From IMG/VR virus record IMGVR_UViG_2541047712_000002: a stretch of 64,000 bases of DNA; one strand, written 5' to 3'. Of this stretch, positions 42,001-45,000 are shown piece after piece. Position 1 is the stretch's first letter. The number at the start of each line of letters is the position of its first letter. This DNA is from a virus (Duplodnaviria; Heunggongvirae; Uroviricota; Caudoviricetes). The position numbers were made by a program.

Positions 42001-45000
42001 GCGTGCACATTATTATATATTTTTATTTAATATAAGATTAACTGAGATATAGCTTACGCAAAGAAGGTAATAAATATAAAGAGAGATGTTCTGAGGTAAT
42101 TTATTGTTGGTGTTTAAGGTTATTTACAGATAGGTAAGTGCATACCTATATAAAAAAGATAAAATGTGATATAAATCCGCCATCCCGATTTGACTTTTCA
42201 TGGAGGAAAATATGTCGAACGAGATGGCGGGCGTAACAACAGAGCAAGTTGAGCGCATTGCCGCGATCGTTGCTCGGGAGGTTGTCGGCAAATTAGGTAA
42301 AGAGCTACGTGAAGAAATTGGCCAGGAGGTCAACGATCAGCTGAAAACCTACTTTGGTGATATGACCCCGGCGCAACATAGTATTCAACACTCCAACCTG
42401 GACAAACTCCTTAACCGGTTAGATTCCATCTCCAGTGGGTTCTTTGGCGGCATTGTTTCTAAAATAACGTCGTTCATTATTACCGCACTGCTTTTGGGGT
42501 TAGCCGCGTATGGCGTGAAAAATGGACTGCAATAACAGGAGATCAAGGATGAAGACTCCGAGAGGCATTCGTAACAATAACCCCGGTAATCTTGATAAAG
42601 GATCGCCGTGGCAAGGTCTGGTTGCTAATCCAGACGAACCCCGCTTTTGCACGTTTAAAGACCCTGTTTGGGGGATTCGTGCGCTGGCGGTGACTCTAAT
42701 TACCTACCACGACAAACGTCGCGCAAAAGACGGCTCAAGTATCGATACCATTCGTGAAGTTATTGAACGCTGGGCACCGCCGAACGAAAATAACACTGAC
42801 GCCTATATTAATGAGGTGTCCAAAGCAGTTGGTGTAACCGCAGACATGATTATCGATCTGCATGATTACGACATCCTTCGACCTTTAGTTGAGGCAATCA
42901 TTCGCCACGAGAATGGCCGAGGCCCGCTAAAAACGCTGAACACCTGGTATGCGGCAGAAGTTATTGAGGAAGGTCTGCGTCGAGCTGGCGTCGTTAAGCC
43001 GGTGAAAACGGTGAAGGCTGTTCCTGTAACGAAAGAAACCGCAGGCGCAACTGTTACAGCAGGTATTGGTCTGGCGCAGCTTGCCGATGTTATGCCGCAG
43101 ATTTCCGCTGCTATGGATAAAGCACAAGGTCATATCTCTAGCGGGGATACAGTACGCATCATCTTCGGTATTGCCACTATTGTTGTGGCAGGATTCATTG
43201 CCTGGTCGCAGGTAAGAAAACACCAGAAAGGGATGGTCTAATATGCTAGGCAGCCTGATGACAAAGCTAAAAGTTGCTTTGATTATGCTGGCTGCCGTTC
43301 TTTTCGTTCTTGTCGGCGCTTACACGATGGGCGGAAATGCGGCGCGACGAGCAATGGAAGAGAAGGCAAAACAGGAAGACAGAAAACGACTTCAAAACAC
43401 AGTGAAAGTGGTGAATGAGACGAGCAGTAAAATACGTCAGAAAGATGCTTCTGCCGTTCATCGTGAGTTGTATGATAAGTGGGTGCGTCATTAAACCACA
43501 AACAGCCAGCGTGTTGTTCTGCGATGGGGCTGAGCCTATCTATATCAGCAATAATGATGTAATGACTGAAGAAACCGAACGCCAAATCCTTTTTCACAAT
43601 ACGATGGGAGAGAGGGTTTGTGGTTGGTGATGTCGAAGTTCCCCTCAAATGAGGGGAACACATTATTCTTCGAACAATTTTTCGATAGATTTTGTAGGAT
43701 AGAACAAAGAACGCTCGTTGTTACCAACCAGCTGGATAAAGCCTAAACTTTTATAAAACGCCTTGGCTTTGTCATTTAACGCCTCAACGAAAAGTCCATG
43801 AATGCCTACAGCAAGAGATGCATTGTACACAACGCGCATTGCATGTGTTACAAGCATTGAGCCAAATCCTTGACCTTGAAGGGACTTGTCCAAAGCCAGC
43901 CTACCCAAAGTAACACTTGGAACATTCCGATAAGGAACCTTCTTTTGTTTGCTTCTTGAAGGTAAGGACTCCTTTTCAAAACAACTACCTGACAAAGTGT
44001 AATATCCTAACACTTTTGGCCTTTCTTCTTGAGTGCAAAGCACATAAGCACGAAGAATTTTTCCCTCATGCTGCCTTTTTAAGTGGTTGGCTAAAAAGGC
44101 GTTTAGTGACTCTTCGCCGCAATCAAAACCGTTTAGATCATAATCTTTCTCTCCAGAGAAAATCTCTATCGTTGTATTGCTCACGAGTAAACTACTCCAT
44201 GCTTTTCAGACGATCAGCAGCTCGTTTCAGCTTGTCGTTCGGTGCCGGAGGATTGCTTATAGCGTCCATAACCAGATTCCAGGATTCTTCATTCAGAACT
44301 AGTCTACGGTGTTGCTCTATAACTTTCACGGCACGTTCAGATGCACTGCTAACCATAAACTGAGTAATGCTCTGGTTAGACATTGCGGCAGCTTCCTCGA
44401 TGATGCTTTTATCGTCATCGGTTAATCTCAAATCGATGCGCTGCTTTTTTAGTGCTGACATGTATTCCTCCTGATGGCCGTGATGTAGGAAGGCCATCAA
44501 TCTCCTCTGTTCAAACTGAGTTTTCGACTCAAAAATTACTTTAAAAGGCTATAGCCCATTACGTGTGCATTATCAAATTGTGTACGGCATATCACCGTAC
44601 TTGTAATATAGAGGTCATTGTTACTTTTTTCAACAGACAAATACAAGCTATGATTGCCAATTGTTAACCACAACCTACCATTTAACCTTTACACCGCAGC
44701 CGTAGGCATTTAGGCTATATCACATATAAGAAAACAAGTTGTTTCAGACGATAATTATATACGCAAAGGGAACTCTCCAATGACCAAGATCTTTGTGGTT
44801 GGCGGCACAAAGGGCGGGCCTGGCAAATCCACCGTTGCCCAGCAAATTGCCGTTTGCCTGAAAGTCAAAAAGAAGAAGAAGGTTTATATTACCGATATAG
44901 ATATTCAGCGCACGACAACGAGCTGGTGTGAAGACCGTCGACAGAACGAAGACCTTGAGCTGATTCCTTTTGCATACGTTCAGGATGACATCATTAAGCA

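What the first reader, a model, noticed from the sequence alone, without database searches (positions are those of the whole stretch)
42212..43630. Lysis cassette with an endolysin candidate carrying a C-terminal membrane anchor, and overlapping Rz/Rz1
The gene before Rz (42549-43241) has an N-terminal catalytic-looking region with an IRNNNPGNL motif and ends in a hydrophobic helix (IIFGIATIVVAGFIAWSQV). Membrane tethering normally comes from N-terminal signal-anchor-release sequences, so a C-terminal anchor is unusual. A second small C-terminally anchored protein (42212-42535) precedes it. Rz1 starts inside Rz and extends past it, the overlapped rather than embedded arrangement.
Basis: partly seen in the sequence, partly recalled or inferred. 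Interest (0 to 1): 0.4.

Follow-up and report, generated by a model that had tools for sequence, protein, structure and literature searches.

The report
Known membrane-anchored endolysin lysis cassette
This is the four-gene cell-bursting cassette of an SSU5-like E. coli phage-plasmid, and its wall-degrading enzyme carries a membrane anchor at its tail end, an odd design that has already been published for related phages and whose way of reaching the cell wall is still unknown.

Summary
Window 42212-43630 holds four co-oriented genes that end at a terminator hairpin: a 107-aa protein with one C-terminal membrane helix, a 230-aa endolysin, a Rz-like i-spanin, and an overlapped Rz1-like lipoprotein o-spanin.

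The window is an SSU5-like phage-plasmid. The cassette is 97.6% identical to Escherichia phage Cyrano and 82% to Salmonella phage SSU5. Both records already annotate it as holin, endolysin, Rz and Rz1.

The endolysin belongs to the published Enc34 / M4Lys / Chi gp38 type:
- Its catalytic domain matches PDB 7Q47 at E 2.6e-54, and the catalytic Glu, Trp and Tyr are invariant.
- It is followed by a conserved linker, a weak helix, a strongly hydrophobic helix and a basic tail.

Homologues have been shown to degrade peptidoglycan, and their C-terminal membrane domain has been shown to be needed for lysis. So the "unusual" C-terminal anchor is real but already known.

Two smaller points appear not to have been described:
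- The C-terminal membrane module is also found on GH24 and Hydrolase_2 endolysins, including the experimentally studied LysAP.
- The SSU5-type "holin" is an uncharacterised, narrowly distributed protein unrelated to the Chi-type partner.

How the enzyme reaches the cell wall remains unresolved.

The parts
42212..42535 (+). 107-aa putative holin or lysis regulator. It has a helical soluble N-terminal region of about 80 aa, a single C-terminal TMD (residues 81-101, nt 42452-42514) and a short tail, VKNGLQ.
   Evidence: ORF and GGAGGA RBS. KD peak 2.02. phrog_5093, unknown function, 7e-69. No Pfam or NCBIfam hit. Annotated 'Holin' in Cyrano and 'putative holin' in SSU5 by position only. Only 30 protein clusters and 12 phage records, all from SSU5-like elements. 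Not similar to Chi gp37.
42549..43241 (+). 230-aa Enc34/M4Lys-type endolysin (whole gene, including the stop codon).
   Evidence: phrog_873 'endolysin' 8.5e-88. PDB 7q47 E 2.6e-54. 55% identity over the full length to Chi gp38. 99.6% to PhiR41_1. 182 phage records cover at least 80% of it.
42549..42998 (+). Catalytic domain (residues 1-150, PHA02564 family, alpha-lobe lysozyme-like). IRNNNPGN motif at residues 7-14. Trp75 at 42771-42773, Tyr86 at 42804-42806, catalytic Glu121 at 42909-42911.
   Evidence: AF2 pLDDT about 90 over residues 30-150. Foldseek top hit 7q47, TMt 0.80, 59% identity. W75, Y86 and E121 are invariant in 80 homologues and align to Enc34 Trp79, Tyr95 and Glu131 (PMC8943055).
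42996..43040 (+). Lysine-rich linker (residues 150-164) ending in the near-invariant PVTKET motif.
   Evidence: Column conservation. 4 Lys, net charge +3. Family mean 3.3 K/R. AF2 shows it as disordered.
43041..43115 (+). Helix 1 region (residues 165-189), rich in G/A/S/T and only weakly hydrophobic. Invariant A167, G174, Q177 and A188; near-invariant P183.
   Evidence: 52% G/A/S/T; summed insertion free energy about +7.8 kcal/mol, against +1.2 for helix 2. AF2 helix at 175-194, low confidence. Predicted as a second TMD in Siskin and Enc34 (PMC6498227, PMC8943055).
43152..43238 (+). Helix 2 (residues 202-222, strongly hydrophobic TMD, preceded by the conserved SSG-D-x-V-R motif) plus the basic tail RKHQKGMV (residues 223-230).
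   Evidence: KD 2.07. Conserved in essentially all full-length homologues down to 55% identity. Tail net charge +3. AF2 helix at 201-226.
43243..43494 (+). Rz-like i-spanin, 83 aa, with an N-terminal TMD (residues 11-29, nt 43273-43329) and a charged helical periplasmic domain.
   Evidence: phrog_1026 'Rz-like spanin' 7.5e-25. KD peak 2.52. SSU5 is listed among overlapped two-component spanins in PMC6139136.
43415..43630 (+). Rz1-like o-spanin lipoprotein, 71-aa precursor. Signal peptide residues 1-23, lipobox ISG|C, Cys24 at 43484-43486, Val at +2. Overlaps Rz by 80 nt in another frame.
   Evidence: phrog_1275 1.3e-24. 51% identity to Chi gp40. The SSU5 o-spanin is placed in the 'Chi' family in PMC6139136. 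Frame and start analysis.
43638..43659 (.). GC-rich hairpin (GTTCCCCTC-AAAT-GAGGGGAAC) 8 nt after the Rz1 stop. It is the likely terminator that closes the cassette, lying between it and the convergent toxin-antitoxin pair.
   Evidence: Terminator-like site, the only one found in 41700-43800.

Best explanation
The region is the late lysis operon of an SSU5-like phage-plasmid.

**Endolysin.** Gene 42549-43241 encodes an Enc34/M4Lys-type endolysin. Its N-terminal all-helical glycosidase domain uses Glu121 as general acid. M4Lys, a homologue, released GlcNAc from muropeptides, which indicates N-acetylglucosaminidase activity. A Lys-rich linker joins this domain to a conserved C-terminal membrane module of about 75 aa.

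**Upstream protein.** The 107-aa tail-anchored protein sits in the holin position. It most likely sets or modulates the time of membrane permeabilisation.

**Shown here:**
- homology of the catalytic domain and invariance of its catalytic residues;
- the conserved membrane module;
- the spanin features;
- the operon layout.

**Shown only in homologues:**
- the catalytic domain alone degrades peptidoglycan;
- the full-length protein lyses or poisons E. coli without its holin;
- removing the C-terminal TMD abolishes this effect.

**Inferred, and my preferred mechanism:**
- The enzyme is made without a signal sequence.
- It sits on the cytoplasmic face of the inner membrane, with the module inserted as an N-in/C-in hairpin.
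- The weak helix 1 and strong helix 2 resemble the topology of a class II holin.
- The module itself helps make or exploit the membrane lesion that lets the tethered catalytic domain reach the murein.
For: **Identity of the element**
- 97.6% nucleotide identity to Cyrano and 82% to SSU5.
- Over 24 kb, 97-98% identity to roughly 105-110 kb E. coli plasmids.
- Both phage records annotate holin/endolysin/Rz/Rz1 here.
- Cyrano produces virions (PMC9928086).

**Enzyme**
- 7q47 at E 2.6e-54; Foldseek TMt 0.80.
- W75, Y86 and E121 invariant in 80 homologues.
- No other lysin is annotated in the first 100 kb of Cyrano's 108 kb.

**Membrane module**
- The hydrophobic helix and basic tail are conserved in essentially all full-length homologues.
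- AF2 gives two helices after a disordered linker.
- The charge pattern is a basic linker (mean 3.3 K/R), an acidic loop (0.6 K/R, net -1.2) and a basic tail (2.5 K/R). 77 of 80 homologues follow it, which fits N-in/loop-out/C-in.
- TMHMM gave the same topology for Siskin (PMC6498227).

**Function in homologues**
- M4Lys (PMC7143992) and Enc34 ORF39 (PMC8943055).

**Portability of the module**
- It also occurs on GH24 and Hydrolase_2 catalytic domains, which argues that it is an autonomous functional unit.

**Spanins**
-.
Against: - Nothing has been tested on this protein itself.
- Helix 1 is a poor transmembrane segment. Its summed insertion energy is about +7.7 kcal/mol, and it has conserved Gln, Asp/Glu and Pro inside it. 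The hairpin may therefore not insert on its own.
- AF2 confidence for residues 156-196 is below 50.
- Phobius and Phyre2 predicted the opposite topology for M4Lys, with the catalytic domain in the periplasm.
- The holin-independent lysis seen with homologues came from strong-promoter over-expression and may not reflect infection. The Enc34 authors make this point themselves.
- The 107-aa protein has no homology to any described holin and lacks the charged C-terminal tail typical of holins. Its role is assigned by position only.
Confidence: 0.85

Rival explanations
1. SAR-like model, mirror image. Helix 2 is a single-span N-out/C-in anchor. The whole 200-aa N-terminal part, including the catalytic domain, is exported and held inactive on the periplasmic face. 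The 107-aa protein is a pinholin, and its depolarisation of the membrane releases the enzyme.
For: - The basic tail after helix 2 favours C-in.
- Phobius and Phyre2 predicted N-out for M4Lys.
- The LysAP authors propose a 'C-terminal SAR' model and report that 10 mM azide delays lysis.
- The Enc34 authors mention this as a speculation.
- A protein with a single TMD is more plausibly a pinholin than a large-hole holin.
Against: - No known bacterial pathway translocates a folded-size, 200-aa N-terminal domain using a C-terminal signal (stated in PMC8943055).
- The Lys-rich linker in front of helix 1 (4 Lys here, family mean 3.3 K/R) would have to cross the membrane.
- The conserved helix 1 has no role in this model.
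- Helix 2 is strongly hydrophobic (KD 2.07), unlike the releasable SAR domains.
- Azide only delayed lysis in both studies, and the M4Lys authors read the same result as Sec-independence.
Confidence: 0.2
2. It is an ordinary cytoplasmic endolysin released by a canonical large-hole holin. The C-terminal hydrophobic end acts only after release, as a membrane-active peptide that helps breach the outer membrane. Some Gram-negative endolysins have C-terminal amphipathic or cationic helices that work this way.
For: Endolysins with membrane-active C-terminal helices are known (cited in PMC8943055). The region around helix 1 has some amphipathic character.
Against: - Helix 2 is uniformly hydrophobic, not amphipathic or cationic (mean hydrophobicity 0.65, hydrophobic moment 0.30).
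- A complete spanin pair is present to deal with the outer membrane.
- Full-length homologues are toxic from within, and the M4Lys TMD alone is bacteriostatic.
- LysAP lacking its TMD accumulates in the cytosol, which the authors take to mean the full-length protein is membrane-anchored.
Confidence: 0.05
3. The protein is a virion-associated (ejection-stage) peptidoglycan hydrolase rather than the lysis endolysin, because the same catalytic domain occurs in internal core and tail proteins.
For: The domain matches PHROGs annotated as tail injection transglycosylase, tape-measure and head proteins. It matches Gp29, a core protein of phage E1004 (PDB 9vvp). It also matches internal virion proteins of T7-like phages.
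Against: - Those proteins are large (about 670-1300 aa) and carry the domain as one module. This one is a 230-aa stand-alone gene between a holin-position gene and the spanins, after the tail-fibre genes.
- No other endolysin is annotated in the first 100 kb of Cyrano's 108 kb.
- Homologues lyse cells from within.
Confidence: 0.03

Closest known systems
Enc34 ORF39 endolysin (Hafnia phage Enc34; PDB 7Q47; Cernooka et al. 2022, PMC8943055)
   Same: - Same catalytic family (PHA02564), 59% identity over the crystallised domain.
- Same catalytic Glu/Trp/Tyr.
- Same C-terminal two-helix membrane domain.
- Same cassette order, with overlapped spanins.
   Different: - The host element is a phage-plasmid with a lambda-like tail module, not a Chi/Nazgul-type virulent siphovirus.
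- The upstream partner in Enc34 has an N-terminal TMH, whereas here it has a C-terminal TMD and no detectable homology.
- The Enc34 paper describes the architecture as limited to Chivirus and some related phages and does not mention SSU5 in its text.
M4Lys of Salmonella phage BSPM4, Chi gp38 and the Siskin endolysin (PMC7143992, PMC6498227)
   Same: 55% identity over the full length, including the membrane module. The Rz1 proteins are homologous (51% identity). These are the only members in which lysis from within, dependence on the TMD and the bond cleaved have been tested.
   Different: Chi gp37 / BSPM4 ORF_37 (the 'lysis protein B', proposed as a class IV holin, N-out/C-in) is replaced here by an unrelated protein with the domain order reversed. 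In both, the bulk of the soluble part is predicted to be cytoplasmic.
LysAP of Acidovorax phage AP1 and gp33 of Brucella phage BiPBO1 (GH24 lysozymes with a C-terminal TMD; PMC8879335)
   Same: The C-terminal linker, helix 1, helix 2 and basic tail match the profile built from the window's family. Scores are 20.8 and 37.6 bits, and 0 of 2000 shuffles reach them. LysAP lysis also depends on the TMD.
   Different: The catalytic domain is unrelated (Phage_lysozyme PF00959, Glu-Asp-Thr triad). The published work treats LysAP as a separate novelty and does not link it to the Enc34/M4Lys module.
SAR endolysins (P1 Lyz, phage 21 R21, phiKMV gp45), from my own knowledge of the field
   Same: A membrane-tethered muralytic enzyme whose activity is thought to be coupled to the state of the inner membrane. 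Over-expression gives holin-independent lysis.
   Different: SAR domains are N-terminal, weakly hydrophobic, Sec-inserted and releasable. Here the N-terminus is hydrophilic and the anchor is C-terminal and strongly hydrophobic. The defining SAR feature was tested and not met.
Two-component overlapped spanins of the Chi / P2 type (Kongari et al. 2018, PMC6139136)
   Same: An i-spanin with an N-terminal TMD and an o-spanin lipoprotein whose gene starts inside the i-spanin gene and runs past it. The SSU5 pair is already catalogued there.
   Different: None of note. The i-spanin is short (83 aa) and is listed as a singleton family in that survey.

Membership tests
Enc34/M4Lys-type endolysin (PHA02564 catalytic domain + C-terminal membrane domain) | Catalytic domain homologous to Enc34 ORF39 in sequence and fold | tested here: met
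   phmmer against PDB 7q47: E 2.6e-54 over residues 3-151. AF2 model against 7q47: Foldseek E 1.9e-15, TMt 0.80, 59% identity.
Enc34/M4Lys-type endolysin (PHA02564 catalytic domain + C-terminal membrane domain) | Catalytic Glu131 with Trp79 and Tyr95 (Enc34 numbering) | tested here: met
   The aligned residues are E121, W75 and Y86. All three are invariant in the 80-sequence alignment A1.
Enc34/M4Lys-type endolysin (PHA02564 catalytic domain + C-terminal membrane domain) | C-terminal two-helix membrane domain followed by a basic tail, with no N-terminal signal or SAR sequence | tested here: met
   KD peak 2.07 at 204-222 and none near the N-terminus. AF2 helices at 175-194 and 201-226. Conserved columns. 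Tail net charge +3.
Enc34/M4Lys-type endolysin (PHA02564 catalytic domain + C-terminal membrane domain) | Encoded between a small membrane protein and an overlapped spanin pair | tested here: met
   The order is the same in Chi.
Enc34/M4Lys-type endolysin (PHA02564 catalytic domain + C-terminal membrane domain) | Peptidoglycan-degrading activity of the catalytic domain, and TMD-dependent lysis from within | not testable with these tools
   Shown only for the homologues M4Lys and Enc34 ORF39.
SAR (signal-anchor-release) endolysin | N-terminal weakly hydrophobic signal-anchor domain | tested here: not met
   The N-terminus MKTPRGIRNNNPGNLDKGSPW is hydrophilic. The only hydrophobic peak above threshold is at residues 204-222.
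SAR (signal-anchor-release) endolysin | Sec-dependent export and release on membrane depolarisation | not testable with these tools
   The azide experiments on homologues are contradictory in interpretation. M4Lys was read as not Sec-dependent and LysAP as Sec-involved, although both saw only a delay.
Two-component spanin, overlapped architecture | i-spanin: N-terminal TMD plus a charged helical periplasmic domain | tested here: met
   KD 2.52 at residues 11-29. phrog_1026 7.5e-25.
Two-component spanin, overlapped architecture | o-spanin: lipoprotein signal peptide with lipobox Cys and an outer-membrane sorting residue | tested here: met
   MRRAVKYVRKMLLPFIVSCMISG|CV, with Val at +2. phrog_1275 1.3e-24. 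51% identity to Chi gp40, including the conserved Cys residues.
Two-component spanin, overlapped architecture | The o-spanin gene starts inside the i-spanin gene in another frame and extends beyond it | tested here: met
   43415 lies within 43243-43494. The offset of 172 nt gives a +1 frame. The gene ends at 43630.
Holin (for 42212-42535) | Small protein with at least one TMD encoded next to the endolysin | tested here: met
   107 aa, one TMD at 81-101, and a stop codon 13 nt before the endolysin start.
Holin (for 42212-42535) | Homology to a described holin family | tested here: not met
   No Pfam or NCBIfam hit. phrog_5093 is of unknown function. No similarity to Chi gp37.
Holin (for 42212-42535) | Charged, hydrophilic C-terminal cytoplasmic tail | tested here: not met
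   Only VKNGLQ follows the TMD, with one positive charge. The hydrophilic part is N-terminal instead.
Holin (for 42212-42535) | Timed, lethal permeabilisation of the inner membrane | not testable with these tools
   No experiment on this family was found in the searched literature.

The most novel reading that the evidence does not exclude
The C-terminal module of about 75 aa consists of a basic PVTKET linker, a weak Gly/Ala-rich helix, an SSG-x-W/V-V-R motif, a strong TMD and a basic tail. On this reading it is a portable, self-sufficient 'holin-like' export or permeabilisation domain that has been shuffled onto at least three unrelated catalytic domains (PHA02564, GH24, Hydrolase_2). It would make these endolysins autonomous lysis proteins. 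The variable upstream single-TMD proteins, including the SSU5-type 107-aa tail-anchored protein, would then be timing regulators (antiholin-like) rather than holins. That would define a third route of endolysin delivery, alongside holin-dependent release and SAR/signal-peptide export.
Probability: 0.3. Interest if true: 0.6.

Novelty: already known. Interest (0 to 1): 0.25.

Why it matters
As a finding in this window it is ordinary. The cassette is annotated in public records, and the architecture has been described and partly characterised since 2019-2022.

The remaining value lies in the open mechanistic question of how an enzyme with no signal sequence and a C-terminal membrane domain reaches the periplasm. 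SSU5-like phage-plasmids are very common in clinical Enterobacteriaceae, with hundreds of plasmid records, and they grow in E. coli K-12 backgrounds. They would therefore be a convenient genetic system for answering this.

The observation that the same membrane module sits on GH24 and Hydrolase_2 lysins links two literatures that currently reach opposite conclusions about Sec dependence from similar azide data. It also suggests module-swap experiments.

Tried and rejected
1. **Pfam and NCBIfam.** Scans of all four cassette proteins gave nothing above the cut-offs. The catalytic family has no Pfam model.
2. **AF2 model of the 107-aa protein.** Mean pLDDT was 47.7, too low for a fold search. I take from it only that the protein is all-helical.
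3. **The 94-aa multi-TMD protein at 41746-42030 as the real holin.** Rejected for three reasons. It is absent from Cyrano and SSU5 at this position. It travels with the tail-fibre region of lambdoid phages at 93-97% nucleotide identity. It is separated from the cassette by about 170 nt of AT-rich spacer.
4. **Promoter scan.** No sigma-70-like site was found upstream of 42212, so the operon's promoter is unassigned. It is probably a late promoter, or transcription reads through from the tail genes.
5. **SAR classification.** Rejected because there is no N-terminal hydrophobic segment.
6. **Literature searches.** Searches for 'class IV holin' and for endolysins with a C-terminal transmembrane domain found no follow-up work that resolves the mechanism.
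7. **tblastn with a GH24-type module.** Only Brucella phage BiPBO1 turned up among 50,697 phage records, so the module on GH24 is rare in cultured phages.
8. **Short stand-alone matches.** The 53-79 aa proteins that consist of the module alone (P0173, P0176, P0182, P0185) may be gene-call fragments. I do not count them as evidence for free-standing holin-like proteins.
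Full report
**What is there.** Window 42212-43630 carries four co-oriented, tightly packed ORFs.
- 42212-42535 (107 aa).
- 42549-43241 (230 aa).
- 43243-43494 (83 aa).
- 43415-43630 (71 aa), which starts 80 nt before the end of the third gene in another frame and runs 136 nt past it.

The first two genes have good ribosome-binding sites, GGAGGA and CAGGAG. A GC-rich hairpin at 43638-43659 follows the last stop. It is the only terminator-like site in 41700-43800. Beyond it lie a convergent GNAT toxin / TacA-like antitoxin pair and a ParA-like partition gene.

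**Where it comes from.**
- The cassette is 97.6% identical to Escherichia phage Cyrano, 93% to PhiR41_1 and 82% to Salmonella phage SSU5.
- A 24-kb stretch around it is 97-98% identical to roughly 105-110 kb non-mobilisable E. coli plasmids.
- The window is therefore an SSU5-like phage-plasmid.
- Cyrano (pLF82 of E. coli LF82) annotates these four genes as Holin, Endolysin, Rz spanin and Rz1 spanin. SSU5 RefSeq annotates them as putative holin, endolysin and Rz-like spanins.
- Cyrano produces virions (PMC9928086), so a near-identical cassette works in nature.

**The endolysin: catalytic domain.**
- Pfam and NCBIfam have no model for it. It matches phrog_873 'endolysin' at 8.5e-88.
- Residues 3-151 match PDB 7Q47 at E 2.6e-54. 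7Q47 is the catalytic domain of the phage Enc34 endolysin.
- An AF2 model built on 80 homologues has pLDDT of about 90 over residues 30-150. It finds 7Q47 as its only significant structural match, with TMt 0.80 and 59% identity.
- The residues that the Enc34 paper names as catalytic or substrate-positioning are Glu131, Trp79 and Tyr95 (PMC8943055). They align to E121, W75 and Y86, and all three are invariant in the 80-sequence alignment.
G6 and N11-P12-G13-N14 are invariant.

**The C-terminal anchor.**
The Kyte-Doolittle 19-residue mean is 2.07 at residues 204-222.
- It is remarkably conserved. Essentially every full-length homologue down to 55% identity has it, followed by a basic tail.
- It is part of a larger conserved module:
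  - a Lys-rich linker ending in the near-invariant PVTKET;
  - a Gly/Ala/Ser/Thr-rich segment with invariant A167, G174, Q177 and A188 and near-invariant P183 (helix 1);
  - a short acidic loop ending in S198-G199;
  - the strong helix 2, with R203, G207, A214, I217, A218 and invariant Q221;
  - a basic tail.
- AF2 places helices at 175-194 and 201-226 after a disordered linker, but with low confidence.
- Helix 1 is a poor membrane segment on its own. Its summed insertion energy is about +7.8 kcal/mol, against +1.2 for helix 2.
- The charge distribution is a basic linker, an acidic loop and a basic tail. 77 of 80 homologues follow this pattern, which is what the positive-inside rule expects of an N-in/loop-out/C-in hairpin.

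**Already published.**
[quoted passage not shown] It proposed a new endolysin class and a class IV holin (PMC6498227).
- Bai et al. (2020) studied the homologue M4Lys (PMC7143992). They showed:
  - M4Lys alone lyses E. coli;
  - the domain without the TMD degrades peptidoglycan and releases GlcNAc;
  - truncating the TMD abolishes lysis;
  - the TMD alone is bacteriostatic;
  - azide only delays lysis.
- Cernooka et al. (2022) solved the Enc34 catalytic domain. They found the full-length protein toxic and discussed the 'perplexing' TMD (PMC8943055).
- The window protein is 55% identical over its full length to Chi gp38. 182 phage records carry a full-length homologue.

**The spanins.**
- Rz matches phrog_1026 (7.5e-25) and has an N-terminal TMD.
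- Rz1 matches phrog_1275 (1.3e-24) and is 51% identical to Chi gp40.
- Rz1 has a 23-residue signal peptide with a basic n-region, the lipobox I-S-G-C and Val at +2, consistent with outer-membrane sorting.
- Kongari et al. (2018) already list SSU5 among the overlapped two-component spanins and place its o-spanin in the Chi family (PMC6139136).

**The 'holin'.**
- The 107-aa protein has a helical hydrophilic N-terminal part of about 80 residues, one C-terminal TMD and only six residues after it.
- It has no Pfam or NCBIfam hit and falls in phrog_5093, of unknown function.
- It is found in only 30 protein clusters and 12 phage records, all SSU5-like.
- It is unrelated to Chi gp37, which has its TMD near the N-terminus followed by a hydrophilic domain. 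If gp37 is N-out/C-in, as predicted for Siskin, both proteins keep their soluble part in the cytoplasm but with the domain order reversed.
- Looking upstream of more distant endolysin homologues:
  - a Providencia element has the SSU5-type partner (53% identity);
  - an Alcaligenaceae prophage has a non-homologous 99-aa protein, also with a C-terminal TMD;
  - a Pasteurella prophage has an 85-aa upstream protein with no clear TMD.
- The partner is therefore variable while the endolysin's own membrane module is constant. 'Holin' is a positional label here. In M4Lys experiments the equivalent Chi-type partner was dispensable and slightly slowed lysis.

**An addition: the membrane module is portable.** I built a profile from the last 80 residues or so of 32 family members and searched it against 1.84 billion representative proteins. 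It found only 39 proteins at E<=1e-3. Besides PHA02564 endolysins these include:
- seven proteins with a GH24 Phage_lysozyme domain;
- one with a Hydrolase_2 (SleB-like) domain.

In each case the match lies at the extreme C-terminus, with the same order of linker, weak helix, 'SSG-x-W/V-V-R', strong helix and basic tail. Brucella phage BiPBO1 gp33 and the experimentally studied LysAP of Acidovorax phage AP1 (PMC8879335) also match, at 37.6 and 20.8 bits on their last 80 residues. None of 1000 global and 1000 segment-preserving shuffles of each reached these scores. The published papers treat the LysAP type and the Enc34/M4Lys type as separate curiosities. They also interpret similar azide-delay data in opposite ways. 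Attachment to three unrelated catalytic domains argues that the module is an autonomous functional unit, not a lineage-specific appendage.

**Mechanism.**
- Shown here:
  - identity of the enzyme and its conserved catalytic residues;
  - a conserved membrane module;
  - a complete spanin pair.
- Shown in homologues: muralytic activity, and TMD-dependent lysis from within.
- Inferred:
  - The protein has no signal sequence.
  - The charge pattern and the conserved helix 1 favour a cytoplasmic catalytic domain tethered by an N-in/C-in hairpin. This is the topology of a class II holin, with a weak first helix.
  - The module probably contributes to, or exploits, the membrane lesion.
  - The upstream protein probably sets the timing.
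- Main rival: an N-out single-span 'mirror-image SAR' topology, which I rate at about 0.2. It lacks a known export route, would have to move a Lys-rich linker across the membrane, and leaves helix 1 unexplained.

**Verdict.** Residual interest lies in three points:
- the unresolved delivery mechanism;
- the uncharacterised SSU5-type partner protein;
- the shared membrane module across lysin classes.

Noticed in passing
window 42996-43238, compared with P0175, P0177, P0180, P0183, P0184, P0187-P0189, L008 1129-1812 (LysAP) and L009 1563-2246 (BiPBO1 gp33): The endolysin's C-terminal membrane module is homologous to the C-termini of GH24 (Phage_lysozyme) and Hydrolase_2 endolysins, including the experimentally studied LysAP. 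The papers I read treat these as separate novelties.
   Followed up: partly
window 41746-42030 (and 41700-41988): A 94-aa protein with at least two hydrophobic segments (phrog_1443, unknown function) lies between the tail-fibre chaperone-like gene and the lysis cassette. This stretch is 93-97% identical at the DNA level to lambdoid E. coli phages (for example 2G7b, mEp460 and IdasGreatGrand), but it is absent at this position from Cyrano and SSU5. That suggests a recent exchange of the tail-fibre-adjacent region.
   Followed up: partly
window 43663-44184 (-) and 44192-44500 (-): A GNAT acetyltransferase toxin (Acetyltransf_7/1) with a TacA-like antitoxin (PF08681, 8.6e-26) lies convergent to the lysis cassette and shares its terminator hairpin. 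It is annotated as KacT-type in Cyrano.
   Followed up: partly
L001 4384-4503 (Cyrano CYRAN_25), equivalent to window 43511-43630: Cyrano's Rz1 annotation starts 32 codons downstream of the ATG at window 43415, so it lacks the signal peptide and the lipobox cysteine. The longer ORF (43415-43630) matches the PHROG o-spanin profile over residues 6-71.
   Followed up: yes
L006 3231-4225 (Providencia SSU5-like element): Two extra genes (103 and 227 aa, no Pfam hit on record) are inserted between the endolysin and the i-spanin, so the cassette is not always contiguous.
   Followed up: no
window 38356-40743: The 795-aa tail-fibre protein contains a long Ala/Ser-rich region with reiterated 'SETNAK(A/N/S)SE(T/V)AA(K/N)' units and has no Pfam hit. 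The next-but-one gene (41031-41735) carries a Peptidase_S74 intramolecular-chaperone domain.
   Followed up: no
window 42200-42214: An in-frame ATG four codons upstream of the favoured start of the 107-aa gene (MEEN-MSNEM) could give a dual-start pair like lambda S105/S107. The upstream ATG has no Shine-Dalgarno sequence, and gene calls in homologues use the downstream start.
   Followed up: no
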